Positions 16,441-45,781 of a stretch of DNA of 64,000 nucleotides are shown piece after piece. The position numbers and the translations under genes are program-made. The notes under the pieces were generated by a model, which saw only the letters and a program-made list of their open reading frames with translations, was not told the DNA's origin and made no database searches. Position 1 is the first letter of the stretch; each line of letters starts with the position of its first letter. This DNA comes from a virus (Duplodnaviria > Heunggongvirae > Uroviricota > Caudoviricetes): positions 22,201 to 86,200 of IMG/VR virus record IMGVR_UViG_3300037471_001733. The stretch is one strand, 5' to 3'.

Positions 16441-16452
16441 GGCGTCCCCTCC

Positions 16453-16746: not shown

Positions 16747-16757
16747 GGCGCGGCCCC

Positions 16758-17132: not shown

Positions 17133-17182
17133 GGTGTGATCTCCTATTGCCGCTCATGCTGGCGGCGCAGCGGGTTGAAGGG

Positions 17183-17452: not shown

Positions 17453-17462
17453 GGTTCGCTCC

Positions 17463-17681
17463 TCAGTTGAAGCCCTTGTCCGCCTCGATCTGGCGCAGGA
17501 TCTCGACTGCCTCAGCGATCGGCACGAAGTCAGACAGGGGGTCAACAATCGTTTTCTTGCCCACGGTCACCAGCACGACGCGAAACTTTCCGCGCGCCGC
17601 CTCAGTGCTGATTCCGGGCATGCCGGTGGCGGCGCGCGCGGCAAGGGTGGCGGCTCGCAATTGCTTGAGTTGCTCAAACAT
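17463..17681 (-). CDS. hypothetical protein (72 aa)
   Basis: Starts at conserved junction TGAGGAGCGAACCATG (17679-17694). Confidence 0.5.
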   Translation of the reverse strand: MFEQLKQLRAATLAARAATGMPGISTEAARGKFRVVLVTVGKKTIVDPLSDFVPIAEAVEILRQIEADKGFN

Positions 17682-17691
17682 GGTTCGCTCC

Positions 17692-17931
17692 TCAGATACC
17701 GAAAACTTGATTGATCGCAGCGCGGCGCAGTGCCTCGCAGTGCATCTGCGCCACGGGTTGATTGATCTCGTCCACCACGTCAAGTGCATCGTTAACGGCA
17801 TCCATGAGATGCGCCATGGCGATATCTTCCGGGTTTGCTTCTACGTGATTGCGCAACTGCAGGCGGGCGCTCAGCAGGTTTTCGACGATCACGTCGAATT
17901 GCTTGACATGCATGGTCACAGGGGTGGGCAT
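17692..17931 (-). CDS. hypothetical protein (79 aa)
   Basis: Starts at related junction TGAAAGGTCGAGCCATG; helical sequence. Confidence 0.5.
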   Translation of the reverse strand: MPTPVTMHVKQFDVIVENLLSARLQLRNHVEANPEDIAMAHLMDAVNDALDVVDEINQPVAQMHCEALRRAAINQVFGI

Positions 17932-17942
17932 GGCTCGACCTT

Positions 17943-18176
17943 TCAGCGCATGTTGATGTAACCCGGCATGCCGAGTGCGCGCGCCAGCACGTTTGCCGCG
18001 TGGCGGTCTGCAAGGTTGCATATCAGGTACTTGGCCTGCGCGACCGCTTCGAAGTGCGCGCTCTGCGCCTCTTCGTATTCCTGATGGGTTCGATTGCTGT
18101 CGCCGATCATGTGCACGTGGCCACCGATGGCGGGCCGCAATTCCTTGGCGATGCTGATGGCAGTTCGGATATTCAT
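17943..18176 (-). CDS. hypothetical protein (77 aa)
   Basis: Starts at conserved junction TGAGGAGCGAACCATG (18174-18189). Confidence 0.5.
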   Translation of the reverse strand: MNIRTAISIAKELRPAIGGHVHMIGDSNRTHQEYEEAQSAHFEAVAQAKYLICNLADRHAANVLARALGMPGYINMR

Positions 18177-18186
18177 GGTTCGCTCC

Positions 18187-18318
18187 TCAGTGCGCCGCAC
18201 GAATGGCGGCAATGTCTGCATGGATCAGCGCGCGGACTTGCAGGCGGCGCACGAGGGATTGATCGTTGCGCATGGGTAGCAGAACCCGCAGCGCATACAT
18301 AAGAGAGAAACGAGACAT
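18187..18318 (-). CDS. hypothetical small protein (43 aa), first gene of leftward operon
   Basis: Below ORF-track cutoff. ATG 18318, stop inside the conserved junction; MSRFSLMYALRVLLPMRNDQSLVRRLQVRALIHADIAAIRAAH. Confidence 0.4.
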   Translation of the reverse strand: MSRFSLMYALRVLLPMRNDQSLVRRLQVRALIHADIAAIRAAH

Positions 18319-18366
18319 CTCAACCCCTTGCCACTGATTACGCGCGGCGCCGTTTGGTATGTCTCT

Positions 18367-18395
18367 AATGTAGGCGATACGACTACATGATGCAA
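18367..18395 (-). promoter_or_regulatory. candidate sigma70-type promoter with embedded operator (copy A, leftward)
   Basis: Minus strand reads TTGCAT-catgtagtcgtatcgcc-TACATT (17-nt spacer); spacer carries TGTAG-N9-CTACA inverted repeat. Confidence 0.55.
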
Positions 18396-18419
18396 GCCCT
18401 TGCGCAAACTTTTTTCATG

Positions 18420-18660
18420 CGCCATGGCGGCGCGGCTGCACGTATATTGATAGTGCTGCGCCGCATAGGTGCGGCTTTGCTTTGCCTGCTCGCTTTTGCC
18501 TGCTGGTGCTGCAGCATGGGCACGAGTGCCTGCGCCATGGATGCGCCGCACTGGTCTGCGCGCCGTGCGCCGCCTCGTGCTGATCAGCTGCGCCGCCGGT
18601 CGAGCTGGTGCGCGACGTTGAGCGGCTGCCTCGTGCTGGCAATCGAGCGAGTGCGCGACC
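18420..18660 (+). repeat. non-coding GTGC(T/G)G-rich array (array R), related to array L
   Basis: About 9 GTGC on plus strand; shares exact words cctgctggtgctg (13 nt) and cgagtgcctgcg (12 nt) with 15.65-16.2 kb, same orientation. Confidence 0.55.
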
Positions 18661-18667
18661 TGGCGCA

Positions 18668-18764
18668 CCCCCTCTGATGGAAACACAGGCAACCCCCTGG
18701 AGTGGAAACACAGGCCAGGCGCACCCTCTCCACGGGAATTACGGAACCCCCTGAGATGGAAACA
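18668..18764 (+). repeat. four tandem iteron-like units CCCCCT-N4-TGGAAACA(CAGG)
   Basis: Copies at 18668-18685, 18693-18710, 18747-18764 plus degenerate 18723-18739 (CCCTCT-N4-GGGAATTA); 24-30 bp spacing; array ends 20 bp upstream of promoter copy B. Confidence 0.65.
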
Positions 18765-18784
18765 GGAATTCACAAATAAACTAC

Positions 18785-18813
18785 TTGCGTTCTGTAGTCG
18801 TTGCGCCTACATT
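18785..18813 (+). promoter_or_regulatory. candidate promoter with embedded operator (copy B, rightward)
   Basis: TTGCGT-tctgtagtcgttgcgcc-TACATT (17-nt spacer); nearly identical to copy A in inverted orientation. Confidence 0.55.
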
Positions 18814-18872
18814 GGACACATCGCAGCACTGCTGCAGCGGCGCCACCCGCGACGAGTGGCACTGGAGTTGAT

Positions 18873-19547
18873 ATGTTTGGAAAATACGGCAAGCGGATTA
18901 CCGATCCTGCGGAACTGCGCGAGTATCGTTTGAGCTATGTCCCGGCCGCGCTGCGCGACCAGTGCCAGCACGTGAAGTGCAAAACCGGCGATGCTGAGGC
19001 GTGGATCTGGAGCGACAAGGGCCGCGCCTACGCGGTGGGTTTCTCCGGTCGCGGCAAACACCCGTGGTCGCGCAATGGTGGCCAGGGAGCGGCCTACTAC
19101 TTCAAAACCCCGGAAGCGCGCCGCTCCTGGGTTGCGGAACTGTTTGCAGACGCCATGGCCGACGCAAAGCGCGCCGAGGAGCGCAAGGCGCAAAAGGCCG
19201 CAGCGCGTGCAAAGCCGCACGCCTTGCAGGTGGGAGATGTGTTGCGCTCCTCCTGGGGGTACGACCAAACCAATATCGACTATTACGAGGTCACGAAGCT
19301 TGTCGGCTCACAGATGGTCGAGGTTCGGCGCATTGCCTGCCAGTCTGAGGAAACCGCGCACATGCAAGGCGTGAGCGTTCCCGCCCCTGGCCACTACATC
19401 GGCGAGCCGAAGCGTTGCAAGGTCTCCGACTACGGCAACCGCGACTCGGTCAAGGTGTCCGAGGTGGCGCACGCCTACAAGATGACCCCGCGCATCGTCG
19501 GCGGCGTCAAGGTTTTCAACTCGTCTAGCTGGACGGCCTACGCCTGA
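18873..19547 (+). CDS. hypothetical protein (224 aa), type I associate with plasmid/ICE accessory regions (memory only)
   Basis: ATG 18873 with GGAG RBS; basic/Ala-rich linker then VGDVLRSSWGYDQTNIDYYEVTKLVG... beta domain. Confidence 0.55.
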   Translation: MFGKYGKRITDPAELREYRLSYVPAALRDQCQHVKCKTGDAEAWIWSDKGRAYAVGFSGRGKHPWSRNGGQGAAYYFKTPEARRSWVAELFADAMADAKRAEERKAQKAAARAKPHALQVGDVLRSSWGYDQTNIDYYEVTKLVGSQMVEVRRIACQSEETAHMQGVSVPAPGHYIGEPKRCKVSDYGNRDSVKVSEVAHAYKMTPRIVGGVKVFNSSSWTAYA

Positions 19548-19554
19548 TCAACCA

Positions 19555-19575
19555 GGGCCGCTCATGCGGCGGCCC
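19555..19575 (+). other. GC-rich stem-loop after the 224-aa gene (weak terminator/attenuator candidate)
   Basis: GGGCCGC(19555-19561)/GCGGCCC(19569-19575), no clear U-tract. Confidence 0.3.
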
Positions 19576-19605
19576 CCTTACGTGAATTTCACAGGAGCAC
19601 CGACC

Positions 19606-19908
19606 ATGGGCACCACGACCGGCCGACTCTTCCGCACGATCCGCAGCACGGGACGTGGAAGCGACTACTTCGGCACCTGCGACCAGTGCGGCAAGCACAT
19701 GAGCGAATGCCACGTGAGCCAAGTTCAGCGCGAATATCGGCGCGACGATGGCACCACGTACACCGGGCCCGTGACCGGCGGCGCCTATGGGCATCGTGAG
19801 TGCTTGGTCAAGCACTTCGGCGAACCCGTCCCAGCGGTGACGCGCGAATCCGTGCGAGTTTCGCCCTTTACTGATCCGGCGCGCTTCCCCAAAACGCTGC
19901 GCGCCTGA
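19606..19908 (+). CDS. hypothetical Cys/His-containing protein (100 aa)
   Basis: RBS cAGGAGcaccgaccATG; CDQCGKH...ECH...HREC possible zinc site. Confidence 0.5.
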   Translation: MGTTTGRLFRTIRSTGRGSDYFGTCDQCGKHMSECHVSQVQREYRRDDGTTYTGPVTGGAYGHRECLVKHFGEPVPAVTRESVRVSPFTDPARFPKTLRA

Positions 19909-19944
19909 CCCCTTCCGTAGATTGCACAGCAGGAGCACCACACC

Positions 19945-20340
19945 ATGGGAGCAGCAGCAGAACACCGGGGCAATGCCCTGATCCGCAGGCAGGCCGGCGC
20001 AGCGCATGCCGCGCGCCAAGCCATCGAGGACGCAGCGCGCGCCGCGCAGGTGGCCGAGGACTGCAACGAGTTTGCCCGCCAAGCGTGGGCGTATCTGCTC
20101 GACCCTTCCGGCCTGCGGCAACCCGCAGTGGAGCGCGCAAAGACTCGGCGCGGCTGGGCTAAGCGCCATGCGGAACTCAGTGCCGCGCATTGCGCATGGG
20201 TTGATGCGGACCATCGCAACGCCATGGCCTACCTTAGCGCCTGCATCCGCCGCGCGAAAGCCGCGCATGCGCTACTCACATTTGCGCTGGGCGGCTGGAC
20301 GATCCCGGATCACATTGAAGTGCCGCGCGCTGCGGCTTGA
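19945..20340 (+). CDS. hypothetical helical protein (131 aa)
   Basis: RBS cAGGAGcaccacaccATG; stop embedded in TGACCCCTTCC motif. Confidence 0.5.
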   Translation: MGAAAEHRGNALIRRQAGAAHAARQAIEDAARAAQVAEDCNEFARQAWAYLLDPSGLRQPAVERAKTRRGWAKRHAELSAAHCAWVDADHRNAMAYLSACIRRAKAAHALLTFALGGWTIPDHIEVPRAAA

Positions 20341-20349
20341 CCCCTTCCG

Positions 20350-20405
20350 GCGCACTCGCAAGGGTGCGCATTGCGATGCAGCCACGCGGAAGCATCGCAA
20401 TGCGC
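20350..20405 (+). promoter_or_regulatory. two mutually exclusive RNA hairpins (attenuator-like)
   Basis: GCGCAC(20350-55)/GTGCGC(20364-69) overlaps left arm of perfect 14-bp stem GCGCATTGCGATGC(20366-79)/GCATCGCAATGCGC(20392-405). Confidence 0.4.
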
Positions 20406-20453
20406 CAGCGCGCATAACGGCGCCGTCCCGGCTTGAGGCGGCAGGAGATTCAG

Positions 20454-22262
20454 ATGTCAGCACAAGACTTGATTGTTAGGATCAACGCAGCCGCCCAGGT
20501 GGCCCCGGAGCAACTGCCCAAAGGGGCGCAGCCGCGCGACCACATGATTGCCTTTGAGTACACCGACGCCCACGGCACGCGCGGCTGCATGCGCATCCTG
20601 AACACCCGGGCGCGGCTGCTGGCCTTCGCTGAGCAGGTGCGGAAGAACGCGGCAGCATTCGACGGCAAGCCGCGCAGCAAGCCCGCCGGGCCGCGCAAGA
20701 TTGCCGGCGCATCCCCGCTTTCCACGGCGCGCGCACTGCTCAAGGATGGCGCGCGGGTTGAAGCCCTCGCAGCGCTTGAGGCGCGCGGCGGGGAGGTGTT
20801 TTTCGGCGCCGCTGGCGTGCCTGTGCTGCATCAGGTTGCACAGCGCGTGGAGCACGAGGGCCGCCGCTGGGTTGTCACGCGCTGCGCCGTTGATGGTCTC
20901 ATCTACCTCATTCACGAGGCGTCCGGGCTGTCAGCAGGCGGCAAGGGCTTGCCTGAGATGCGCAGCATTGCGGATGCCCTGGCGCGGCTTGAGCTCGTGC
21001 ACCGGGACGAGGCGGAAAACGGCTACCGGCAGCGAATGATTGCTGCGATCGAGCAAGCGGCGGATTACGACCAGCAGGCGGCGCGCGCGGCTTTCGAGGC
21101 GTGCGATGGTCTCAAGAGCAAGGATGCCGCGCCGGTGGCTCAGGAAGCGTACCAGCAGGCGCGCGCGCTGTCGGCGGCGCAGGTGGCGCCCGATGTCGAG
21201 CCGGCAGTAGATGCAGACCCCTCCCCGGTGGAAAGCGAAGCCGAGGCGGCACCCCCTGTAGCGGAAACGCCTGCGGCAGCTGACACCCCTGCAGCGGAAA
21301 TCGAGTCCAGCGCGCCGGCGGTTGCGCCAGCATCCCCTCCGGCGGATTCACAGGCAGGCGCTGCACCCCCTGCGATGGAAAGCGCGCAGCCTGCGCCGCT
21401 TGCCACCGCGCCAGGCCGATCGGATGCGCTCATCGCGCGGGCCATCGCTTGGGTTGCCGTAGTCTGGGGAACCGCCAGCGTGCCGAGCGTTGCGGACTAC
21501 CGCGCCGGCCGGTGCGATGACACATTCCCGTGGGCGGGCGGCAGCCGCGCCGCCGGCTATCTGACATGGGCCGACCTCATTGGCGAGTGCATGGCCGCGC
21601 TGGAGCGCGACGACAGCGCCGACCAGGCGGCACGAGACGCCGCACTGCAACCACCGACCCCCATCCGTAGGAAAGGCCCGCGACAACATGAGCAGCACAC
21701 CCCATCCCGTGCAACCCGCAGTGCCAACCGGCCGCGAGTGGTGGACCCGCGGGCTGCTCGACTGGCACGCCGAGGCGCTGCACGCCGCCCAGGAGATCGC
21801 CGCGCTGCGCGAATCACTGGCTGCGGAGCGCGCAATGGTCCGCGAGCTGCAGGAGGCGCTCGCTGCCCGCCGGCAGGCCGCTTGACCCCTTCCCGGGGAA
21901 TCACGGCGCCACAAGCTTGCCGCCCCTGGCGCGACGCCAGCGAAACCCGAGACTGCACCCATAAAAACCTGGAGCACAGCATGACCTACACCGAAGCCAT
22001 CCAAGCCCTGCGCGACGCTATTGCGCAGGCCCCGAAGGGTGAAAAGCTGCAAGCCTTCCAAGCCAAGCGGGAGAAGATAATAGGGGCAATGCCCAAGGTG
22101 GAAATCTGTGGCGGCGAGCAGTGCATCCGCTATCCCAAGGGCTACCGCTTTGACTGCGGTCGCGAGGTCCACACGGACTGGATGTGGCAACCGTTTGCCA
22201 GCGAGGAAATCGCCATGCGGCCTGGCAACCTGCCGTACATCCTGCGCATGCCGGCTGCCTGA
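20454..22262 (+). CDS. long open frame; N-terminal ~400 codons look like a real two-domain protein with Pro/Ala/Glu repeat linker; 3' end probably composite
   Basis: AGGAG RBS before ATG 20454. No in-frame stop for 1.8 kb; frame turns Arg-rich (junk-like) from about 21660 to 21980, then is in frame with the 93-aa ORF. Confidence 0.4.
   Translation: MSAQDLIVRINAAAQVAPEQLPKGAQPRDHMIAFEYTDAHGTRGCMRILNTRARLLAFAEQVRKNAAAFDGKPRSKPAGPRKIAGASPLSTARALLKDGARVEALAALEARGGEVFFGAAGVPVLHQVAQRVEHEGRRWVVTRCAVDGLIYLIHEASGLSAGGKGLPEMRSIADALARLELVHRDEAENGYRQRMIAAIEQAADYDQQAARAAFEACDGLKSKDAAPVAQEAYQQARALSAAQVAPDVEPAVDADPSPVESEAEAAPPVAETPAAADTPAAEIESSAPAVAPASPPADSQAGAAPPAMESAQPAPLATAPGRSDALIARAIAWVAVVWGTASVPSVADYRAGRCDDTFPWAGGSRAAGYLTWADLIGECMAALERDDSADQAARDAALQPPTPIRRKGPRQHEQHTPSRATRSANRPRVVDPRAARLARRGAARRPGDRRAARITGCGARNGPRAAGGARCPPAGRLTPSRGITAPQACRPWRDASETRDCTHKNLEHSMTYTEAIQALRDAIAQAPKGEKLQAFQAKREKIIGAMPKVEICGGEQCIRYPKGYRFDCGREVHTDWMWQPFASEEIAMRPGNLPYILRMPAA
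21218..21382 (+). repeat. five copies of CCCC(C)T-N4-6-(T/C)GGA(A/T)(A/T) motif inside the linker-coding region
   Basis: Copies starting 21218, 21252, 21286, 21334 (degenerate), 21366; 32-48 bp spacing; encode PSPVESE/PPVAET/TPAAEIE/SPPADSQ/PPAMESA. Confidence 0.55.
21688..21885 (+). CDS. hypothetical coiled-coil protein (65 aa), nested in another frame of the long ORF
   Basis: AGGAAAGG RBS; protein-like sequence (REWWTRGLLDWHAEALHAAQEIAALRESLAAERAMVRELQEAL); stop in TGACCCCTTCC motif. Confidence 0.5.
   Translation: MSSTPHPVQPAVPTGREWWTRGLLDWHAEALHAAQEIAALRESLAAERAMVRELQEALAARRQAA
21981..22262 (+). CDS. hypothetical protein (93 aa)
   Basis: RBS ctGGAGcacagcATG; protein-like composition. 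Confidence 0.5.
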   Translation: MTYTEAIQALRDAIAQAPKGEKLQAFQAKREKIIGAMPKVEICGGEQCIRYPKGYRFDCGREVHTDWMWQPFASEEIAMRPGNLPYILRMPAA

Positions 22263-22404
22263 CGCATTGTCCGGTGGCGCAGCCTTTGGCGTTCAGCGCT
22301 ATTTGAACAAGGTGCGCGGTTTAGTTCAGGCGTACTTGAATAGCGCCCCCCCATGTAGTGAAAACAGGGCATCAACCCCATCCAGCGGATACAGGAGTCA
22401 AACC

Positions 22405-22695
22405 ATGGGAAGTATCAACCTCGGCCGCCACCACGTCGCCATCAGCGATCAATGGACGATCTACACCCCTGGCCTACCTGGCTGGCAGATGCTGGGCGTG
22501 ATCACCCGCAGCAAGGGTGGCGAGCAGATCACGAAGGCGCTGGCCCGCAGCCCGAAGGGCGAGCTCTGCGCGGTGCGTGGGCTGTCAGCCGAGCCGCTTG
22601 TCCAGCGAAAGGCTGAAGCGGCGCTGGCGGCTGCGATGCGCGAGGCCCATCCGGTGGAAACAGATGGCACCCATTCCGAGGGAAACAGGGCTTGA
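22405..22695 (+). CDS. hypothetical protein (96 aa)
   Basis: RBS acAGGAGtcaaaccATG. Confidence 0.5.
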   Translation: MGSINLGRHHVAISDQWTIYTPGLPGWQMLGVITRSKGGEQITKALARSPKGELCAVRGLSAEPLVQRKAEAALAAAMREAHPVETDGTHSEGNRA

Positions 22696-22719
22696 ATATG
22701 TAGGTTAAGCGCCTACACT
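22692..22719 (+). promoter_or_regulatory. candidate promoter with embedded operator (copy C), apparently leaderless for the 76-aa HTH gene
   Basis: TTGAAT-atgtaggttaagcgcc-TACACT (16-nt spacer), TGTAGG-N7-CCTACA palindrome in spacer; ATG 22726 lies 6 nt after the -10. Confidence 0.55.
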
Positions 22720-22725
22720 GGCATC

Positions 22726-22956
22726 ATGAGCACCTTACCGCCGCGCACGCCAGAGAACATCAAAGCCTTCCGCCAGCGTGCCGGCTGGACGCAGGAGAAG
22801 GCATGCGAGATGGCGTGCATCCACGACCGCCAAACCTGGCGTAAGTACGAAAACGGCACGCTCAAGATGAGCGAAGAGCGCTGGCGGCTGGCGCACTTTA
22901 TGGCCAACCTGCACCCCGACTTCGACGTTCGGCCGCGTACCAAGGCTGCGGCCTAG
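22726..22956 (+). CDS. XRE-family helix-turn-helix regulator (76 aa)
   Basis: IKAFRQRAGWTQEKACEMACIHDRQTWRKYENG...RWRLAHFMANLHPDF typical XRE/MqsA-like HTH pattern. Confidence 0.65.
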   Translation: MSTLPPRTPENIKAFRQRAGWTQEKACEMACIHDRQTWRKYENGTLKMSEERWRLAHFMANLHPDFDVRPRTKAAA

Positions 22957-22989
22957 CCTTCGCCCTCTGAGTACCGCCGGGAGGCGGCG

Positions 22990-23334
22990 TCAACCGTTTG
23001 GGTTCTGTGCCAGCCAAGCCCGGATCATCGCCTTGACCGCGGCGTGCAGGCCGTGTGGCGCGTAGACGCCACGCACTTCCTCGATACCTCTTTCCTTGAG
23101 CAGGGCCCTTCTTGCTCGATTCCTCTCTGTCGAGCTCTTCCCCGAAGGGGCTTTCGCGGTGGCGTTCATGAGCAGTTCCGTGCCATCGATTTTCTTCTCA
23201 GGCAAGGAGCAGGGGGCCAGTTCGCACTCTGCGGGAGCATTTGAGGGGGGCGGTTTGTTCTCGACCATTTGGCATTGACCCGTCGCGCGCGACGGTCCAT
23301 CATTCTTCGCTTTTCGACGATCAGAAGCCGCCAT
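22990..23334 (-). CDS. small basic DNA-binding-type regulator (start uncertain; 55-114 aa)
   Basis: C-terminus STERNRARRALLKERGIEEVRGVYAPHGLHAAVKAMIRAWL resembles small plasmid/phage basic-region regulators; alternative ATG at 23169. Confidence 0.45.
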   Translation of the reverse strand: MAASDRRKAKNDGPSRATGQCQMVENKPPPSNAPAECELAPCSLPEKKIDGTELLMNATAKAPSGKSSTERNRARRALLKERGIEEVRGVYAPHGLHAAVKAMIRAWLAQNPNG

Positions 23335-23568
23335 AAGTTGTGATGCGGCCGGAGTGCGCTAGTTGCAAGAACTATCAATTGGCATTCTCAAGGCGCAAGC
23401 GTGTCTTGCCAAGACTTTGTTGCACAGAGAGCGGCATGGATGCCGCTTTTGCGTTTGTGCAATCACCTCGAAAGGTTCCTGCCAGAGGATGCCGCCGATT
23501 GCCCACTATGGGGCAGGAACCAGTTCCACAATCGAAGCGCCACGCACTACGAAGAGTGGAGTTGCGCC

Positions 23569-24279
23569 ATGGACTGCGGCAAGAGAAGAACATGGGAGTG
23601 TGGCGTGACAACGAACTCTAAGAGGCTTTCTGGTAGACCATCTTTTAATTGGTCTATACCTGAGCCAGAAGAAGTTAAAGAAGTTAGATTGAAAGCCAAT
23701 TTGTCTCAGAGAGAAGCTTGTAATCTTTCTGGGATTAAAGAAGTAATGACTTGGAGTAATTGCGAAACTAGGAGAGCCGATGGCACTCCTAAGGCCCGCA
23801 TGGACCCAATTAGATGGGAATATTTCCTTCTAATAGTTGGACAACATTCCAAATTCGTTATTCTTCCGAGACTCGGGGTTGAACAGCCAAGAGAGGCGGC
23901 AGCTTTAACTAGGAAAGGTCCGTCTCTGCCTGGGGAGAACATTACTTTCGCAGTCGAGAGCCGAACTAGTGAAGACGAGTGGCGCTTGGTAGAAGGCGGA
24001 CAGTTCACAGCTCTGACTGCGGCATGTGTGGCCATAGACACGATGGTTGCCTGCAGGAACCTAAATGAACTAAGGGTGTCGCGTTACTCAGGTGGCGACT
24101 TCGTGATGGCAGTGCATGGGCCTGGTGTCTCTATGGACGAAGGCCCGAAGCGTTTTACCCATGCAAAGGCTGCGCCATCTCGAAGGACTGGGACTGACAG
24201 GAACGGAGCAGACCCAGGAGACCCAGATAATGATGGAAATGGAAGCAGAAATTCCAATGGTTTCGACCCTCAGGATTGA
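23569..24279 (+). CDS. low-GC HTH-fusion protein (236 aa): N-terminal XRE-type HTH, C-terminal ~130-aa unknown domain, acidic/Gly/Asn tail
   Basis: VKEVRLKANLSQREACNLSGIKEVMTWSNCE...PIRWEYFLLIVGQH HTH pattern; AT-rich codons (AGA, TTA, AAA) unlike rest of window. Confidence 0.6.
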   Translation: MDCGKRRTWECGVTTNSKRLSGRPSFNWSIPEPEEVKEVRLKANLSQREACNLSGIKEVMTWSNCETRRADGTPKARMDPIRWEYFLLIVGQHSKFVILPRLGVEQPREAAALTRKGPSLPGENITFAVESRTSEDEWRLVEGGQFTALTAACVAIDTMVACRNLNELRVSRYSGGDFVMAVHGPGVSMDEGPKRFTHAKAAPSRRTGTDRNGADPGDPDNDGNGSRNSNGFDPQD

Positions 24280-24306
24280 CATTCCCCGAAATAGGGAAGC
24301 CCAGGA

Positions 24307-40302: not shown

Positions 40303-40820
40303 GCCTTGGCTCCTTCAGCGGGCTCGTCTTTTCGGCGTTGGTCAGCTTCGCCAGCCAAGTGCAGGCCATGAATCGCTAGCGCCTCACGAATCCTGGCGAT
40401 GGATGTGGGTCCAATGCCGCCGAACCGGCGCCGAGTCAGGTCCGCAGGAGTGAGCCTCGTCAGGGCGCCAATCGTTCGCACGCCATTGCGGTCCAAGGAG
40501 CCGGTCACCCTGGGCGTGAGGCCATCAAGCGCGGCGGGCGAGAAGGCCAGGAAGCCGACGTCATCAGGGTGCGGGCCCTGCTCGTGGCGCGGCTCGATGA
40601 GCGGCGGACGGGCCGGAGACGGCGCAGGAGCGGGCTCGGGCGCCGGCACAGGGATCGTGAAGCTCACCGGCTTCAGGCGCACCTTCAGCATCTCGTCGGC
40701 CACCATGTACGACACGATGGCAACCTGCTCCGGGCTGATGTCGCCGCCGTAGGCGCCCAGCAGGGACTGCATGGCACCCTCAGCGAGCTTGTCGCGCAGC
40801 TTGGTCAATTGCTTGCTCAT
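40299..40820 (-). CDS. protein with C-terminal RNA polymerase alpha-CTD-like helix-hairpin-helix domain (173 aa)
   Basis: LTPRVTGSLDRNGVRTIGALTRLTPADLTRRRFGGIGPTSIARIREALAIHGLHL parallels RpoA CTD (LSVRSANCLK..I.YIGDL....E.LL...N.G.KSL.EI...L...GL.L). Confidence 0.55.
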   Translation of the reverse strand: MSKQLTKLRDKLAEGAMQSLLGAYGGDISPEQVAIVSYMVADEMLKVRLKPVSFTIPVPAPEPAPAPSPARPPLIEPRHEQGPHPDDVGFLAFSPAALDGLTPRVTGSLDRNGVRTIGALTRLTPADLTRRRFGGIGPTSIARIREALAIHGLHLAGEADQRRKDEPAEGAKA

Positions 40821-41599
40821 GCTCCAGCCCTCCGCGCAGTCGGCCGGTAACTCTCCCAAGGAAACGGCACCCAGCGACACGTCTCGGCCAGTCGATCAAA
40901 GGTGCGCTCACCAACGAACTGCTTGAAGCCCGCCGAGTTCTGGTTCGTGAGCAGGATGGTCGGCTTGACATCGCGGTAACGGCCGTCCAGCACGTCGAAG
41001 ACGATGTTCTGCTCGCTATCGGTGCCGTACTGCACGCCAACCTCGTCGATGACCAGCAGGTCCAGGTCCGTCAGGTAGCGCAGCACCTGCGTCTCGCTCT
41101 TCTCGCTGTCGCGCCGCCACGTCTCGCGGATCATGCGGATCAGGTCCATGCAGGTCACGTAGCGCACATCCGGCGAAAGCAGCGACTGCAGGACAGCGCC
41201 AGCGAGGTGGCTTTTGCCGGTGCCCGGCTTGCCGGCCAAGATCAGCCCGGAGCCCTTGCGCGAGTGCTCGGCAAAGTTCTCCGCGAAATCGCGCGTCACC
41301 GTCAGCGCATGGCGCTTCTCGTCGGTGTCGGCCACGAAGTTGTCGAACGTGCGGCCGATGAAGCGCGTCGGGATCATGGCGCTGGCCAGCATCCGGCTAT
41401 GGCGCTCTTCAGCGTCGCGGCGCTTTTGCTCAGCCTCGGCCGCGCGGTCCTCCTTGGCCTTGGCCTCTTCGCAGGCAGGACAGCGCGACCAGATGCGGCC
41501 GAAGATGTTGCGGCTCGTGTAGTCCCCGTGCTCGAGGCAAGAGGCTGCGCGCTCTTCCACCTGGCGCCTCACGGTGTCAGACAAGCGATCCATCGTCAT
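40817..41599 (-). CDS. DnaC/IstB-like AAA+ helicase-loader (260 aa)
   Basis: GLILAGKPGTGKSHLAGAV Walker A, DLLVIDEVG Walker B; follows replication initiator. Confidence 0.8.
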   Translation of the reverse strand: MTMDRLSDTVRRQVEERAASCLEHGDYTSRNIFGRIWSRCPACEEAKAKEDRAAEAEQKRRDAEERHSRMLASAMIPTRFIGRTFDNFVADTDEKRHALTVTRDFAENFAEHSRKGSGLILAGKPGTGKSHLAGAVLQSLLSPDVRYVTCMDLIRMIRETWRRDSEKSETQVLRYLTDLDLLVIDEVGVQYGTDSEQNIVFDVLDGRYRDVKPTILLTNQNSAGFKQFVGERTFDRLAETCRWVPFPWESYRPTARRAGA

Positions 41600-42632
41600 C
41601 CACGCCTTCGCGGTAGTCCTTGGAGTCAAAACCAGCGTGCTTGCTGGCACCTTGGCTGCCGGCGACCGGCAGTTCGTCCATCCAGCGCCCCTGGTTCAAC
41701 CAAGTAGACGGATGCGGGATGTACTTGCCGCCATCGCGCGTCCAGTCAGTGGACTGCTTCTGCACCTTGATGGCATTCAGCATCGTGGCCAGCAGCTCAA
41801 CTCCAACTTGGCGCTTTTCAAAGGCGCGACGTGCCGCGTCAATGCCGACCTTCCTCGGGTATGCGCTCCAGAAATCCTCGAATCGACCGTCACCCCCAGG
41901 GGGGTTAGGGGGGTATTGGTTCCCTTGACGGTTAATTGACGGTTCTCCGTACCGTTTTTGGGACTGCTTCTCGGGAAAAACGGTACCGCTTCCACGGAAA
42001 AACGGTACTGCTTCACCATCCTCCGAAGCTGTACCGTTTTTGGCATAGCTTCCCAGACGTCGAGTCCGCTCCGCGATTGTTGCCGCGCGCAACTTGCTGG
42101 GAGTGCCTTCGTTCTTGCACAGCGGGTCCAAGTCGTACTGGCGGAACAGCCTCATTTCTGCCGCGCTGGCCTCCTCCGGCGTTTCAAACACCTCCAACAC
42201 CTCGCGCACCAGCAGGCGGCCGGCAGCGATCTGCTCGCGCGGCCACTTGCCGCTTCCACGATAGGCGTCTGCCTCGGGGTCTCCGCAAAAAGAGCGCTTA
42301 CCCAGGTAGAAATTGCCCGTCTCCGGGTCTGTCACTCGGTACGTGTAGTGCGTGGCTGACGCCGTAGGCAGGCCAAGCAGCCGATAGACCGGGATGGAGC
42401 CGGTCACACCAACGCGCTTGCCCGTGTCCATAAGCAGACCGGCGTCTTGCAAGTTCTTGATGTTCTTGATGAGAGTCTTGCGGTCGCAGCAGGTGTCCTG
42501 CTCCAGCCGCAGGATGCTCGGGTAACAGAACCCGAACTCGTCGGCGTAGTTGGCAAGGCAGACCATCAAGAACTTTTCGCTGGACTTCGGCATGTCCAGC
42601 TTGAAGGCGTAGGCGAGGGCTGGGATGCTCAC
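41577..42632 (-). CDS. replication initiator/replisome organiser (wHTH N-domain, DnaD-like C-domain) with embedded GIY-YIG-like module
   Basis: GTGA overlap at 42632. KFLMVCLANYADEFGFCYPSILRL wHTH; YTYRVTDPETGNFYLGKRS...YRGSGK...EEASAAEMRLFRQY GIY-YIG-like; FEDFWSAYPRKVG...PSTWLNQGRWMDE C-domain. Confidence 0.7.
   Translation of the reverse strand: MSIPALAYAFKLDMPKSSEKFLMVCLANYADEFGFCYPSILRLEQDTCCDRKTLIKNIKNLQDAGLLMDTGKRVGVTGSIPVYRLLGLPTASATHYTYRVTDPETGNFYLGKRSFCGDPEADAYRGSGKWPREQIAAGRLLVREVLEVFETPEEASAAEMRLFRQYDLDPLCKNEGTPSKLRAATIAERTRRLGSYAKNGTASEDGEAVPFFRGSGTVFPEKQSQKRYGEPSINRQGNQYPPNPPGGDGRFEDFWSAYPRKVGIDAARRAFEKRQVGVELLATMLNAIKVQKQSTDWTRDGGKYIPHPSTWLNQGRWMDELPVAGSQGASKHAGFDSKDYREGVDDDGSLV
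41926..42045. repeat. iteron cluster inside the replication gene (candidate origin of replication)
   Basis: AAAAACGGTAC at 41976-86 and 41998-42008; inverted GTACCGTTTTT at 41949-59 and 42031-41; TTGACGGTT x2 at 41926-45; G-tracts at 41899-41913. Confidence 0.6.
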
Positions 42633-42895
42633 AGCGGACCTCCCCGCACGTTCCATTGCCGCGCAGCCTCTACTGCAGCCTCCATGGCGTCTTCCAGCAC
42701 CACATCGGGCCCGTGCGACTCGCACTGCCAGCACTCGACCTTGGCGTTGAATGCCAGGTCGCCGTTGTTGTCCGTGGTCGGGCTGACCTCAGCGCATGCG
42801 TTGCCGTCGTTGCAGAACGGGCACGGCTTCAGGCCGGCGTTGATTTTTTCCAGCTCAGCGTTGAACCGTTTGCTGTTGAAACGGGGGTTGCTCAT
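42629..42895 (-). CDS. lar: Lar-family restriction-alleviation protein (88 aa)
   Basis: LKPCPFCNDGN...VECWQCESHGP...EAAVEAARQWNVRG matches Lar-family pattern (CPFCG...C..C...eAi.aWNrR). Confidence 0.65.
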   Translation of the reverse strand: MSNPRFNSKRFNAELEKINAGLKPCPFCNDGNACAEVSPTTDNNGDLAFNAKVECWQCESHGPDVVLEDAMEAAVEAARQWNVRGGPL

Positions 42896-43970: not shown

Positions 43971-44286
43971 GACTGCCCCCTTTTGGTGGTGTTACCGCAG
44001 TGTTCAAAGACCTGAACGCGGCCTTCTACGGGGTGTGCTTTGCAAGAAACTGTTGCGGTGCAGCACGGTGCTGCTGGAGCGAAATGCTCCGTGCTTCGGT
44101 TGGTGCGGTGCGAGGGGAAATGCGCCCTCTGGATGACAGGCCCGGCGATCTTCGACCATTCGGTCGAGTCGTTGCAGATTTGTACACTTAATGGTTTAAG
44201 GACATTGGCCCATGTACATGACGCGGTGTACCTTTGCCCCATGGAAACGCAGCAATTCGTGACGCGCATCACAGGGAGCGGGTTCA

Positions 44287-44652
44287 TTACACCGGCTCCG
44301 TTGCATCTGCGGGCACAGCAGATGCGCCTTGGCCATCAGTCCAAATCTCTTTCCCGTCGTCAGGATGCAAATGGAATCGCGTGACCTTGCCGCCGGTATT
44401 CCGCTCAATCAGTACAGACAATTTCGGGTTGCTGGGACTCAGCCCGTACATGACGTTGCGGAGGCGACCGAGGGAGACACCACAGCTGGCAGCGAACTCT
44501 TTCCTAGCTTTCGCGTTGGGCAAAGCTTTGACGAAGTCGTACAGCGGGGTGATGTACAGACTGCGGTCGCGTCCATTGACCTTCGTAGCGGTGTAGGTTC
44601 CGGTGCACATAACACCGAATCCTACACTGATGAATGCATACCTAGCAAACAC
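44287..44652 (-). CDS. Cro/YdaS-like HTH regulator (start uncertain: ATG 44652 or 44610)
   Basis: ARKEFAASCGVSLGRLRNVMYG...LSVLIERNTGGKVTRFHLHPDD matches YdaS/Cro-type pattern; first gene of the leftward early operon. Confidence 0.7.
   Translation of the reverse strand: MFARYAFISVGFGVMCTGTYTATKVNGRDRSLYITPLYDFVKALPNAKARKEFAASCGVSLGRLRNVMYGLSPSNPKLSVLIERNTGGKVTRFHLHPDDGKEIWTDGQGASAVPADATEPV
44593..44626. promoter_or_regulatory. 34-bp imperfect palindrome in the cro-like/cI-like divergent region (operator candidate)
   Basis: TGTAGGTTCCGGTG-cacataa-CACCGAATCCTACA; outer TGTAGG/CCTACA, inner CGGTG/CACCG; -10-like TACACT at 44623-28 (plus) and TAGGAT (minus). Confidence 0.55.
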
Positions 44653-44685
44653 CGTTCGTGGCCTGCCGCGCAGTCCACTACTGGT

Positions 44686-45180
44686 GTGAGTGACGACCGC
44701 TTAATCCGTATCAGCAATCTGCGCAGGGTGTGCGCCGAGCGCAGGCTCAAGACCGCCGATCTACACCGGCTCCTGCCCTATGCCCGCTACACCTACTGGC
44801 GTGACGTACTGGAGGGCGACAAGCCCTTTGGAGAGAAGGCAGCGCGCAAGGTAGAAGCCAAGCTCGGCCTGCCCGACCGGTGGCTGGACACGCCGCGGGA
44901 CCCTGTTGAGTTCCGCGAGGTGTTACCCAGCGTGCCCGACGACGACGAAGACGAGCACCCAGATGAAGGGGGCCATGAATCGCACTGGCGCCACATCGCG
45001 GAGCTGTTTGCCGATATCTGCACGGAGCAGGACATCAAGATGCTGCCGTCCACCTTCTTGCTGATCGTTGATGCCGGCGTCCAGCGCGTGAATGAAGCGG
45101 CCGACAAGCGCAAGGCTTCCGAGGTTTTCAGCAAGCTTCTTCGCGTACTACAGCACGGCAAAGACCAAAATAGGGGCTAA
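44686..45180 (+). CDS. CI-type repressor-like HTH protein without recognisable S24 peptidase domain (164 aa)
   Basis: GTG 44686. RISNLRRVCAERRLKTADLHRLL HTH and FGEKAARKVEAKLGLPDRWLD signature of phage CI/C2 N-domains; divergent from cro-like gene. Confidence 0.6.
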   Translation: MSDDRLIRISNLRRVCAERRLKTADLHRLLPYARYTYWRDVLEGDKPFGEKAARKVEAKLGLPDRWLDTPRDPVEFREVLPSVPDDDEDEHPDEGGHESHWRHIAELFADICTEQDIKMLPSTFLLIVDAGVQRVNEAADKRKASEVFSKLLRVLQHGKDQNRG

Positions 45181-45281
45181 TACCTCTTTTCGTAAAACCG
45201 CACCCCCGGGCTTTGCCTTGGCGTAACGAATTACGGAACCTGTAGTTCTTGCAGTAGTCTTCACCACTATGAACCGCACGG

Positions 45282-45596
45282 GTGTTGCGGTTTGGAGCAG
45301 TGGTGGGATCGGTCTGGAACGAAGAAAAGCACGGCAGCCGCCTTCTCGTGGCCGCTAACGAGGGACATGCCCCGGCGCCGACGGAACCCCCGTCGATCAC
45401 GGCGGGGCTGCTGCAGCAGAGATTGCGCAGCAACGCTCCAATCAAGGCCATGAGCAACGCCGCGGCTGATGCCCTGGTCGGGCTGCTCGCTGGCGACACC
45501 GACGCCGCTACGGTGCGCGCGTGGATCGCTGATCTTGACGCCATGGTGCGCAAGGAGATCGTCTTGCCCTCCCAGGGGCCCGTCGGGCTCGCCTAA
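45282..45596 (+). CDS. hypothetical protein (about 104 aa) in rex-like position downstream of the repressor
   Basis: GTG-start ORF between cI-like gene and terminator 45617-45643; start uncertain. Confidence 0.4.
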   Translation: MLRFGAVVGSVWNEEKHGSRLLVAANEGHAPAPTEPPSITAGLLQQRLRSNAPIKAMSNAAADALVGLLAGDTDAATVRAWIADLDAMVRKEIVLPSQGPVGLA

Positions 45597-45616
45597 CCAA
45601 CCCCTTTAAGCAAGCA

Positions 45617-45643
45617 AGAAGCCGCCTTCGGGCGGTTTTCTTG
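45617..45643 (+). terminator. rho-independent terminator ending the repressor transcription unit
   Basis: AAGCCGCC-ttcg-GGCGGTTT stem (45619-45638) followed by TTTTCTT. Confidence 0.75.
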
Positions 45644-45645
45644 GC

Positions 45646-45711
45646 ACACCGTACTGTGTATTTTATCAGTACGTATTTACTTAGGTAATCGAAAAGCACA
45701 CCGTTTTGTGT
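45646..45711. promoter_or_regulatory. operator-like palindromes upstream of the rightward early promoter
   Basis: ACACCGTACTGTGT (45646-59) and ACACCGTTTTGTGT (45698-45711, touching the -35); GTACTG-N10-CAGTAC (45651-72); lower-GC tract. Confidence 0.5.
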
Positions 45712-45740
45712 TGACCGTCGCCGGGCTGCGGTGTTGTAAT
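45711..45740 (+). promoter_or_regulatory. candidate early promoter (PL-equivalent)
   Basis: TTGACC (45711-16), 18-nt spacer, TGTAAT (45735-40). Confidence 0.5.
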
Positions 45741-45781
45741 GACTCCAACGCGCTACACCAAAAAGCGCAATGGAGACGGCA

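What the first reader, a model, noticed from the sequence alone, without database searches (positions are those of the whole stretch)
44593..44626. cI/cro-region palindrome reuses the half-sites of the accessory-module operator
The divergent region between the Cro/YdaS-like and CI-like genes holds a 34-bp imperfect palindrome, TGTAGGTTCCGGTGcacataaCACCGAATCCTACA. Its outer 8-9 nt are identical to operator copy C at 22.7 kb: TGTAGGTT on the left and CCTACACTG on the right. The arms are spaced 23 nt apart rather than 7, and the extra space holds a second inner palindrome, CGGTG-N7-CACCG.

Shared half-sites suggest regulatory cross-talk between the main lysis-lysogeny switch and the accessory module, or a common ancestry by insertion into an operator. 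Both flanking genes appear to have very short or no leaders (-10-like TACACT and TAGGAT close to the candidate starts).
Basis: seen in the sequence. Interest (0 to 1): 0.55.

Follow-up and report, generated by a model that had tools for sequence, protein, structure and literature searches.

The report
Start-codon palindrome in phage immunity switch
The palindrome is real, but it is built from the phage repressor's own binding half-sites mirrored around the start codon of the cro-like gene, and its match to the distant accessory operator gives no good evidence of regulatory cross-talk.

Summary
It extends to 44589-44629 with 17-nt arms matching 14/17.

It is not purely intergenic. Its loop holds the ATG of the Cro/YdaS-like gene (44610, minus strand) and its left arm is cro codons 2-7.

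Nine homologous switches share a 72-75-nt cro/CI spacer. Most carry two 14-bp operators, ACACC-N4-GGTGT, 62 and 37 nt upstream of the CI start, and two more at a PL-like promoter. A matrix built only from relatives finds the window's three strongest hits (>=14 bits) at 45646, 45698 and 44184.

The right arm is a conserved ACACC half-site plus the left half of operator O1, over the likely cro -10. The left arm is a mirrored GGTGT/GGTGC pair. CGGTGT is kept in the closest relative, which has an identical CI recognition region. TGTAGG is not kept there.

The identity with operator C (TGTAGGTT, CCTACACTG) is genuine and unlikely to be pure chance. However, the spacing is 23 versus 7, operators A/B/C align with each other and not with OR, the regulators are unrelated, and the conserved spacer length excludes an insertion.

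Verdict: an operator and promoter complex of a lambdoid switch. Cross-talk is unsupported (about 10%).

The parts
44589..44629 (.). Full imperfect palindrome CGGTGTAGGTTCCGGTG-cacataa-CACCGAATCCTACACTG.
   Evidence: the 17-nt arms (14/17) were read directly from the sequence
44287..44610 (-). Cro/YdaS-like gene (107 aa). Its ATG lies in the palindrome loop and codons 2-7 form the left arm. It heads the operon with the O-like and DnaC-like replication genes.
   Evidence: (JGI calls the same 107-aa product)
44686..45180 (+). CI-like repressor gene (164 aa, GTG start). Predicted as an N-terminal HTH domain, a disordered acidic linker at residues 74-95, and a three-helix C-terminal domain. No S24 peptidase domain.
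44589..44594 (-). Half-site a (ACACCG on the minus strand), inside cro codons 6-7. Conserved at the same spacing in L007.
44602..44606 (-). Half-site b (GGTGC on the plus strand, a weak copy). It is the left half of the inner palindrome.
   Evidence: it falls below the half-site threshold
44612..44617 (+). Half-site c (ACACCG), directly upstream of the cro ATG. Present at the same position in L007, L009 and L008.
44624..44637 (+). O1 position (62 nt upstream of the CI start): ACACTGATGAATGC. The left half is intact and the right half is degenerate (6.0 bits).
44649..44662 (+). O2 position (37 nt upstream of the CI start): ACACCGTTCGTGGC. The left half is intact and the right half is degenerate (3.0 bits).
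44619..44624 (-). Inferred -10 of the cro promoter (TAGGAT), 8 nt from the ATG. The inferred -35, TTGCTA, is at 44643-44648 with an 18-nt spacer.
   Evidence: Inference from positional comparison. It falls below the threshold of the promoter scan.
44674..44679 (+). Conserved hexamer TCCACT, 6 nt before the CI start codon (TCTACT, TCTAAT or TTTACT in relatives). Candidate -10 for a leaderless CI transcript.
   Evidence: inference
45646..45711 (+). OL-like pair of canonical operators: ACACCGTACTGTGT (45646-59, 17.1 bits) and ACACCGTTTTGTGT (45698-711, 16.7 bits). The second abuts the -35 TTGACC (45711-16) of a PL-like promoter whose -10 is TGTAAT (45735-40).
   Evidence: (D5)
22699..22717 (+). 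Accessory operator C, TGTAGGTTAAGCGCCTACA, lying in the spacer and -10 of the promoter of the 76-aa HTH gene (TACACT, then 6 nt, then ATG 22726).
18369..18387 (-). Accessory operator A (reads TGTAGTCGTATCGCCTACA on the minus strand)
18793..18811 (+). Accessory operator B (TGTAGTCGTTGCGCCTACA)

Best explanation
The palindrome is part of the OR operator and promoter complex of a lambdoid prophage or phage switch. It is assembled from the CI-like repressor family's own half-site, ACACC/GGTGT.

Shown:
1. The family operator is the 14-bp palindrome ACACC-N4-GGTGT. Two copies lie 62 and 37 nt upstream of the CI start, and two more lie at a downstream PL-like promoter.
2. The window keeps two strong copies at its PL-like promoter. 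At OR it keeps only the ACACC-type halves of O1 and O2, plus extra lone half-sites.
3. The right arm of the palindrome equals half-site c plus the left half of O1. Both positions are conserved in relatives.
4. The left arm is a mirrored pair of half-sites inside cro codons 2-7. Its CGGTGT core is conserved at the same spacing in the closest relative.

Inferred:
- The right arm overlaps the -10 of the cro promoter, which gives a leaderless or near-leaderless cro mRNA. Repressor (and probably Cro) bound on this array would therefore occlude RNA polymerase at the lytic promoter.
- The coding-side half-sites would act as auxiliary sites that strengthen or extend occupancy across the transcription and translation start. 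The repressor's roughly 22-residue flexible linker could help it reach them.
- The match to accessory operator C comes from a partial overlap of two different motifs (GTGTAg versus TGTAGG), together with -10-like constraints. It does not come from a shared regulator.
For: Context:
- The window is lambdoid. On the minus strand, the cro-like gene is followed by the O-like initiator, the DnaC-like loader and later terminase, portal and capsid genes. On the plus strand, the CI-like gene is followed by a terminator, then bet/exo recombination genes.
- The cro-to-CI spacer is 72-75 nt in nine loci.

Family operator:
- In each of L012-L015, a matrix built from OR sites of relatives finds exactly four strong hits: 62-71 and 37-47 nt upstream of the CI start (62 and 37 in L012, L013 and the metagenome loci), and an independent pair 25 nt apart 0.85-1.4 kb downstream.
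- In the window, the three hits >=14 bits (0.3 expected, maximum 2 in 200 shuffles) are at 45646, 45698 and 44184.
- ACACC/ACACT half-sites: 5 in 44590-44687 and 4 in 45646-45759, against 0.26 per 100 nt across the window.
- ACACCG: 8 in 44589-45734.

Closest relative, L007:
- Its CI recognition region is identical to the window's (LKTADLHRLLPYARYTYWRDVLEGDKPFGEKAAR).
- It keeps CACCGAATCCTACAC 100%.
- It keeps CGGTGT at N17 and N29 from the ACACCG copies, as in the window.
- L006 has a different recognition helix and a different half-site, yet it carries an analogous repeat, TTTGGTAGAA-N32-TTATACCAAA, flanking its cro ATG.

Repressor structure: the AF2 model has an HTH domain, a disordered linker at residues 74-95, and a helical C-terminal domain.

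Precedents: RacR operator O3 spans the racR ATG, with a further lone half-site in the coding sequence and a leaderless transcript (PMC9638921). TP901-1 has a third CI operator inside the mor gene, and composite operators (PMC7250872).
Against: - No binding data exist.
- The half-sites in the palindrome are everted (GGTGT ... ACACC) with N5 or N29 spacing, not the canonical inverted N4. A rigid canonical dimer could not use them pairwise.
- The canonical O1 and O2 score poorly in the window (6.0 and 3.0 bits), so how PR is repressed in this lineage is not explained by the family model alone.
- Only one close relative exists, on a 1.2-kb contig. Conservation of the left arm therefore rests on six nucleotides.
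- The promoter hexamers are below the scan threshold.
- The extra identity with operator C is not fully explained. By a rough hand estimate about 5 nt lie beyond what family conservation and palindromy predict, which is unlikely to be pure chance.
Confidence: 0.6

Rival explanations
1. Cross-talk. The regulator that binds the accessory operators TGTAG-N9-CTACA, presumably the 76-aa HTH, also binds the TGTAGG/CCTACA half-sites at OR, or CI/Cro bind operator C. Either would couple the accessory module to the lysis-lysogeny switch.
For: - Exact identity of TGTAGGTT and CCTACACTG at only these two places.
- TGTAGG-N(0-30)-CCTACA occurs twice against 0.02 expected.
- Operator C differs from A and B at the very positions where it matches OR.
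- There is a documented precedent: a small accessory HTH regulator hits a YdaS/RacR switch at the repressor's start codon (PMC9638921).
Against: - The arm spacing is 23 versus 7 nt, a centre-to-centre distance of 29 versus 13 bp. In the Rac precedent the off-target site kept the n5 spacing.
- With N7 spacing and <=3 mismatches, no site exists in 44-46 kb.
- The CI-family matrix scores A/B/C at -8 to -20 bits.
- The 76-aa HTH shows no similarity to the CI-like or Cro-like proteins.
- The left TGTAGG is TGTTGT in L007.
- A/B/C align from -35 to -10 with one another but not with OR.
Confidence: 0.1
2. The left arm is a functionless relic or by-product. Only the intergenic right arm (half-site c, O1 left half, cro -10) works. 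The mirrored copy in cro codons 2-7 came from an old inverted duplication or from Thr-codon (ACC) usage in a disordered N-terminal extension.
For: - The left arm lies in a poorly conserved, Thr-rich N-terminal extension: MCTGTYTATK here, MGSTNNTVSR in L007.
- Family members without the extension (L012-L015, L018) have no such coding-side half-site.
- The symmetry is weaker in L007.
Against: - A 14/17 match mirrored exactly on the ATG is very unlikely by chance.
- CGGTGT is the longest identical block in an otherwise diverged stretch between the window and L007, at identical spacing.
- L006 has an analogous coding-side inverted copy of its own, different half-site.
Confidence: 0.2
3. RNA hairpin. 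On the cro-sense transcript the palindrome folds into a stem-loop that presents or sequesters the AUG and the upstream AGGA, controlling cro translation.
For: The minus-strand RNA folds at -23.5 kcal/mol with z = -3.4 and the AUG in the loop. One arm mismatch becomes a G-U pair on this strand.
Against: - The -10-like hexamer lies 8 nt from the ATG, so the 5' arm is probably not transcribed from the cro promoter.
- The plus strand folds equally well (-23.5).
- The structure is not conserved: L007 uses other pairs (z = -2.3) and L009 has z = -0.8.
- No Rfam match.
Confidence: 0.05
4. Common ancestry by insertion. OR arose from an accessory-type 19-bp operator into which 16 extra bp were inserted.
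For: Only the arm identity itself.
Against: - The 'insert' carries the cro start codon and half-site c, both at conserved positions.
- The spacer is 72-75 nt in nine homologous switches, none of which has a left TGTAGG.
Confidence: 0.02

Closest known systems
Phage lambda OR / PR-PRM switch (my own knowledge of the textbook system)
   Same: - Divergent repressor and cro genes.
- Repeated palindromic operators between them, and again at a second early promoter (OL/PL) beyond the repressor gene.
- Operators overlapping the lytic promoter.
- A probable leaderless repressor transcript.
   Different: - Two operators rather than three, 14 bp rather than 17 bp.
- The cro mRNA also seems leaderless.
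- The repressor lacks the S24 autocleavage domain.
- In this lineage the OR operators keep only one good half each, and extra half-sites are mirrored across the cro start codon.
Rac prophage RacR-YdaS switch and its cross-talk with C.Csp231I (PMC9638921, PMC6765115)
   Same: - A YdaS-type Cro analogue divergent from a non-S24 repressor.
- An operator whose spacer covers a start codon.
- A further lone half-site in the coding sequence.
- A leaderless transcript.
- A small accessory HTH regulator with a similar half-site elsewhere.
   Different: - In Rac the start-codon operator is on the repressor gene, not on cro.
- The half-sites are TTAGGC.
- The documented cross-talk used an off-target site with the same n5 spacing, whereas here the spacing differs by 16 bp.
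- Sequence similarity of the CI-like protein to this group is only weak (PaaR2 N-terminal domain, Foldseek E > 1).
TP901-1 CI/MOR switch (PMC7250872)
   Same: - A repressor made of an HTH N-terminal domain, a flexible linker and a helical oligomerisation domain.
- An operator inside the cro-analogue gene.
- Composite operators that mix sites.
- The N-terminal domain superposes at about 2.2 A over about 70 residues (E-value not significant).
   Different: - A different host phylum and different operator sequences.
- OD lies in the distal part of mor, not at its first codons.
- No evidence here for a CI:Cro complex.
The window's own accessory operators A, B and C (TGTAG(G/T)-N7-(A/C)CTACA)
   Same: Half-site TGTAGG/CCTACA. 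With operator C, the flanks TT and CTG also match.
   Different: - The spacing is N23.
- There is no -35 at 16-17 nt.
- The sequence does not align with the paralogous A/B/C promoters.
- It lies on a start codon rather than in a promoter spacer.

Membership tests
Lambdoid CI/Cro divergent immunity switch | Divergent repressor-like and Cro-like HTH genes. The Cro-like gene heads the replication (lytic) operon. | tested here: met
Lambdoid CI/Cro divergent immunity switch | The same palindromic operator is repeated at OR and at a second early promoter (OL). | tested here: met
   The family matrix finds pairs at both places in L012-L015. In the window the OL pair is strong (17.1 and 16.7 bits), but the OR sites at 62 and 37 nt upstream of the CI start are weak (6.0 and 3.0 bits).
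Lambdoid CI/Cro divergent immunity switch | Operators overlap the -35 and -10 of the lytic promoter. | tested here: inconclusive
   The position fits TTGCTA-N18-TAGGAT by comparison with TTGACA ... TGTAAT in relatives, but the promoter scan finds nothing at its threshold. No transcript ends are known.
Lambdoid CI/Cro divergent immunity switch | Repressor and Cro bind these sites. | not testable with these tools
   Needs EMSA or footprinting.
LexA-like (S24) autocleaving CI repressors | C-terminal S24 peptidase domain | tested here: not met
   No Pfam family at E <= 0.01. The AF2 C-terminal domain is three helices. The weak top fold matches are Stl, DdrO and the antirepressor-controlled Rep.
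CI-family 14-bp operator ACACC-N4-GGTGT | Half-site ACACC/GGTGT | tested here: met
   Half-sites at 44590(-), 44612(+) and 44624(+), each 8.5-8.9 bits. GGTGC at 44602 is a weak copy.
CI-family 14-bp operator ACACC-N4-GGTGT | Two half-sites inverted towards each other with a 4-nt spacer | tested here: not met
   In the palindrome the half-sites are everted, with N5 (b-c) and N29 (a-d). No 14-mer within 44570-44623 scores above 0.
Accessory operator family A/B/C | TGTAG half-sites | tested here: met
Accessory operator family A/B/C | 7-nt spacer between the hexamers (a 19-bp site) | tested here: not met
   The spacing is 23 nt. The 19-bp pattern with <=3 mismatches has no match in 44-46 kb.
Accessory operator family A/B/C | Embedded between a TTGNNT -35 and a TACAYT -10, and alignable with the paralogous promoters | tested here: not met
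   A, B and C align with each other from -35 to -10. OR does not.
Off-target transcription-factor cross-talk of the C.Csp231I-RacR type | The off-target site keeps the regulator's half-site spacing. | tested here: not met
Translation-control hairpin over the start codon | A stable stem-loop containing the AUG | tested here: met
   -23.5 kcal/mol, z = -3.4
Translation-control hairpin over the start codon | Both arms lie in the transcript, and the structure is conserved with compensatory changes. | tested here: not met
   The 5' arm lies at or upstream of the inferred -10. L007 and L009 fold differently.

The most novel reading that the evidence does not exclude
The four-half-site everted palindrome centred on the cro ATG could be a distinct control device of this sub-lineage. 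In this reading it replaces decayed canonical OR operators, and its outer TGTAGG half-sites are read by a second protein (the Cro-like protein, or the accessory module's 76-aa HTH). The accessory module would then feed into the lysis-lysogeny decision, as the C.Csp231I regulator does at the Rac switch.
Probability: 0.1. Interest if true: 0.55.

Novelty: new member of a known kind. Interest (0 to 1): 0.3.

Why it matters
The analysis defines the operator (ACACC-N4-GGTGT), the promoter layout and the OR/OL architecture of an uncharacterised repressor family. That family is known only from metagenomes and prophages, has no Pfam family, and has no match among isolated phages.

It also shows one lineage in which the canonical OR sites have half-decayed and half-sites straddle the start codon of a probably leaderless cro gene. 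This is a useful but ordinary addition to the catalogue of phage switches.

If the cross-talk reading were true, it would be a second natural example of an accessory regulator wired into a prophage switch. The present evidence does not favour that.

Tried and rejected
- DNA similarity to isolated phages: none. tblastn of the CI-like protein against phages: none.
- Genome collection with Cro peptides: no relatives.
- Composite-palindrome pattern in genomes and viral contigs: only unrelated hits. One Oscillospiraceae and one Parapedobacter coding region, and three viral contigs with (TGTAGG)n tandem-repeat palindromes.
- Metagenome scans, with a CI-proximal DNA anchor and with the CI alignment: nothing, not even the source contig.
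- Homologues of the Cro-like protein and of the 76-aa HTH: only themselves. The accessory operator could therefore not be checked in relatives.
- P0009 (Azohydromonas lata) and P0006: no DNA was retrievable.
- PADLOC and Pfam on the accessory-module ORFs: no hits, so it is not a recognisable restriction-modification or defence system with a C protein.
- Rfam on 43.9-45.9 kb: nothing.
- The sigma-70 scan finds no promoter at its threshold in 44.3-45.9 kb, so all promoter assignments are comparative inferences.
- CCTACACCG at 21985 and 35500 looked like further copies of the arm, but both lie inside coding sequence (Thr-Tyr-Thr codons). They were dismissed.
- An alternative GTG start for cro at 44652 was rejected. 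JGI calls the same ATG and the 75-nt spacer is conserved.

Full report
**1. Observation**

The string TGTAGGTTCCGGTGCACATAACACCGAATCCTACA is in the window at 44592-44626.
- The repeat finder gives arms 44591-44605 and 44613-44627, 15 nt, 87% complementary, 7-nt loop.
- Read directly, the symmetry extends to CGGTGTAGGTTCCGGTG / CACCGAATCCTACACTG (44589-44629, 14 of 17).
- TGTAGGTT and CCTACACTG each occur exactly twice in 64 kb, here and at operator C (22699-22720).
- TGTAGG-N(0-30)-CCTACA occurs twice against 0.02 expected. TGTAGG itself is about twofold over-represented (21 against 9.9).
- Inverted repeats of this quality occur at five distinct places in the window (9 nested hits, against 1.33 in shuffles). 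What makes this one non-random is where it sits.

**2. Context**

The window is a lambdoid phage or prophage from a JGI metagenome contig of 120 kb.
- Minus strand: a Cro/YdaS-like gene (44287-44610, 107 aa; Pfam YdaS_toxin 22 bits, below the cut-off of 30; phrog_35), then an O-like replication initiator (41577-42734), a DnaC-like loader (40817-41650), and much further on terminase, portal, protease and capsid genes.
- Plus strand: a 164-aa CI-like gene (GTG 44686-45180; phrog_5736 and phrog_12107, both transcriptional regulator/repressor families). After it come a 104-aa ORF, a terminator-like hairpin (45622-45635), an AT-richer promoter region, and then Bet-like, exonuclease and other early genes.
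- JGI called the same two starts (P0001 107 aa, P0002 164 aa).
- The palindrome is therefore not simply intergenic. The cro ATG (44610-44608, minus strand) is in its loop, the left arm is cro codons 2-7, and only the right arm lies in the 75-nt spacer.

**3. Relatives**

The Cro-like protein and the 76-aa HTH have no relatives in the 5.8-billion-protein index. The CI-like protein has several, and the alignment-based scan of viral contigs gave more.
- In nine loci the distance from the cro ATG to the CI start is 72-75 nt (for L012 the MELKTYL start gives 72).
- In L012, L013, L014 and L015 the spacer holds two 14-bp palindromes of the form ACACC-N4-GGTGT, 62-71 and 37-47 nt upstream of the CI start. 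L009 and L008 have TACAC-N6-GTGTA 62 nt upstream. L018 has AAACC/GGTTT variants.
- A weight matrix made only from ten OR sites of relatives finds, in each of the roughly 5-kb loci L012-L015, exactly four hits >=10 bits. These are the two OR sites and an independent pair 25 nt apart, 0.85-1.4 kb downstream of the CI start, which is an OL.
- L006 has a different predicted recognition helix (HQSYWYAL instead of RYTYWRDV/L). It has no such sites but carries ACCA-WW-TGGT at both its OR and its PL region. Operator sequence therefore tracks the recognition helix, which is what is expected if the CI-like protein reads these sites.

**4. The window seen through the family model**

- All five matrix hits >=9 bits in 64 kb fall between 43.6 and 45.7 kb. 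That count is no more than the 5.5 expected in shuffles.
- The three hits >=14 bits (0.3 expected, maximum 2 in 200 shuffles) are at 45646 (17.1 bits), 45698 (16.7) and 44184 (14.2).
- The first two form the OL pair. The second abuts TTGACC (45711-16), followed after 18 nt by TGTAAT (45735-40).
- At OR, the homologous positions 62 and 37 nt upstream of the CI start (44624 and 44649) have intact ACAC(T/C) left halves but degenerate right halves (6.0 and 3.0 bits).
- Strong ACACC/ACACT half-sites are nevertheless dense there: 44590(-), 44612(+), 44624(+), 44649(+) and 44683(-). That is five in 98 nt against a window-wide density of 0.26 per 100 nt.
- L007 is the closest relative (CI 66% identical). 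Its residues LKTADLHRLLPYARYTYWRDVLEGDKPFGEKAAR, which include both HTH helices, are identical to the window's. It shows the same picture: a weak or moderate O1 and O2, an OL pair 52 nt apart as in the window, and ACACCG repeated three times in direct orientation.

**5. What the palindrome is made of**

- Right arm, CACCGAATCCTACACTG: half-site c (ACACC, present at the same place in L007, L009 and L008) followed by the left half of O1 (CTACAC). CTACAC or TTACAC is found at that position in L007, L008, L009, L012, L013 and L014. In L007 the 15 nt CACCGAATCCTACAC are identical.
- The same nucleotides on the minus strand (TGTAGGAT) occupy the position of the TGTAAT, TGTACT or TAGTAT -10-like hexamers of relatives. 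These lie 5-8 nt from the cro ATG and 17-18 nt from a TTGACA-like hexamer at the edge of O2 (read).
- In the window this gives TTGCTA-N18-TAGGAT-N8-ATG. Several relatives have no Shine-Dalgarno sequence in that interval. A leaderless or nearly leaderless cro mRNA is therefore the most economical reading.
- Left arm: the mirror image, GGTGT (44590-94) and GGTGC (44602-06), inside a Thr-rich N-terminal extension of Cro that is poorly conserved (MCTGTYTATK here, MGSTNNTVSR in L007). Within that diverged stretch CGGTGT is the longest identical block, at the same distances (N17 and N29) from the ACACCG copies as in the window. The TGTAGG of the window is TGTTGT in L007.
- L006 has an analogous repeat of its own half-site, TTTGGTAGAA-N32-TTATACCAAA, around its cro ATG.
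- Relatives without the N-terminal extension have no coding-side copy.

**6. Mechanism proposed**

Shown: the family operator; its presence at the window's PL-like promoter; the half-site composition and partial conservation of both arms.

Inferred:
- The CI-like repressor, and probably the Cro-like protein as in other switches, occupies the half-site array that runs from cro codon 7 to the CI start. This blocks RNA polymerase at the cro promoter.
- The coding-side half-sites act as auxiliary sites.
- The AF2 model (pLDDT 78) shows a five-helix HTH domain, a disordered acidic linker at residues 74-95, and a three-helix C-terminal domain. There is no S24 domain. Such a linker could allow use of non-canonical spacings, but this is speculation.

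Precedents exist. RacR operator O3 spans the racR ATG, a further lone half-site lies in racR, and the main racR transcript is leaderless (PMC9638921). TP901-1 CI has a third operator inside the cro-analogue gene, and composite operators (PMC7250872).

Weak points:
- The half-sites in the palindrome are everted, not inverted with N4. No canonical 14-mer scores above 0 within 44570-44623.
- The degenerate O1 and O2 are unexplained.

**7. The link to the accessory module**

Operators A (18369-87, minus-strand reading), B (18793-811) and C (22699-717) are paralogous promoter-operators. They align from a TTG(C/A)(A/G)T -35, through the 19-bp palindrome, to a TACAYT -10. OR does not align with them. 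C is followed 6 nt later by the ATG of the 76-aa HTH gene (HTH_31, 29.3 bits).

Against cross-talk:
- The spacing is 23 versus 7.
- No 19-bp site with <=3 mismatches lies near OR or OL.
- The CI-family matrix scores A/B/C at -8 to -20 bits.
- There is no similarity between the 76-aa HTH and the CI-like or Cro-like proteins.
- The left TGTAGG is not conserved in L007.
- In the documented case of an accessory regulator hitting a YdaS/RacR switch, the off-target site kept the native n5 spacing.

Against insertion: the 'inserted' 16 bp contain the cro ATG and half-site c, and the spacer length is constant across the family.

For a real link: once family conservation (CTACAC) and palindromy are discounted, about 5 further nucleotides still coincide, by a rough hand estimate. 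Operator C departs from A and B exactly at those positions. I estimate pure chance at roughly 10^-3 to 10^-2 after allowing for multiple looks, so I leave cross-talk at about 10%.

**8. Other alternatives**

- An RNA hairpin (-23.5 kcal/mol, z = -3.4, AUG in the loop) is possible only if cro has a long leader. The plus strand folds equally well, and the fold is not conserved in L007 or L009.
- Rfam has nothing in 43.9-45.9 kb.

**9. Verdict**

The element is best read as the cro-proximal part of OR in an uncharacterised family of non-S24 repressors. It is a new member of a known kind. The cross-talk and insertion interpretations are not supported.

Noticed in passing
window 45622-45740: A PL-like control region beyond the CI-like gene. 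It has a terminator-like hairpin (45622-45635, followed by TTTTCTT on the plus strand) and two canonical family operators, ACACCGTACTGTGT (45646) and ACACCGTTTTGTGT (45698), 52 nt apart. It also has an inverted half-site CGGTGT (45729-34), a -35 TTGACC (45711-16) and a -10 TGTAAT (45735-40). L007 has the same 52-nt operator pair, whereas L012-L015 have pairs 25 nt apart.
   Followed up: yes
window 45743-45775; L006 5763-5783; L007 1198-1218: A conserved hairpin at the start of the PL-like transcript, CTCCAACGCGCTACACCAAAAAGCGCAATGGAG (-14 kcal/mol, z = -3.3). A 21-mer is identical in L006 and L007, even though L006 has a different immunity specificity. It overlaps the ATG at 45770. It could be a nut/boxB-like or translational element. 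No Rfam match.
   Followed up: partly
window 43971-44286: A 316-nt stretch after the cro stop with no convincing ORF. It holds two operator-like sites: 44184 ACACTTAATGGTTT (14.2 bits, the third-best hit in the window) and 44215 TACATGACGCGGTGTA. L006 has a 153-aa gene at this position. It may be a third operator region or a PRE-like promoter.
   Followed up: partly
window 20366-20405 and 42000-42039: The two strongest palindromes in the window. GCGCATTGCGATGC...GCATCGCAATGCGC lies in the accessory module. AAACGGTACTGCTTC...GAAGCTGTACCGTTT lies inside the O-like replication initiator gene and may be an origin element.
   Followed up: no
window 18667-18769 and 22650-22688: Direct repeats ACCCCCTnnnnTGGAAACA(CA)GG (three copies) lie between accessory operators A and B. 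Two GGAAACAG boxes lie just upstream of operator C. They may be binding sites for an activator of the accessory promoters.
   Followed up: partly
window 16000-24300: The accessory module is transcribed partly against the late-operon direction. It consists of ORFans: no Pfam, PADLOC or PHROG function, apart from phrog_37844 (unknown function) for 18873-19547 and the HTH_31 domain of the 76-aa protein. By eye only, the 292-aa ORF at 23401-24279 has an HTH-like segment resembling the 76-aa protein.
   Followed up: partly
L003 9480-9514, L004 12007-12041, L005 1458-1492 (IMG/VR contigs): Unrelated viral contigs carry perfect palindromes made of tandem TGTAGG repeats, (TGTAGG)n-ACAT-(CCTACA)n, flanked by terminator-like hairpins. 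This is a curious structure that may be telomere- or resolution-site-like.
   Followed up: no
L006 3347-3358 and about 5737-5748: L006 has a different CI recognition helix (HQSYWYAL). It uses TACCA(A/T)(A/T)TGGTC at both its OR and its PL region. This is a second immunity specificity on the same switch scaffold.
   Followed up: partly
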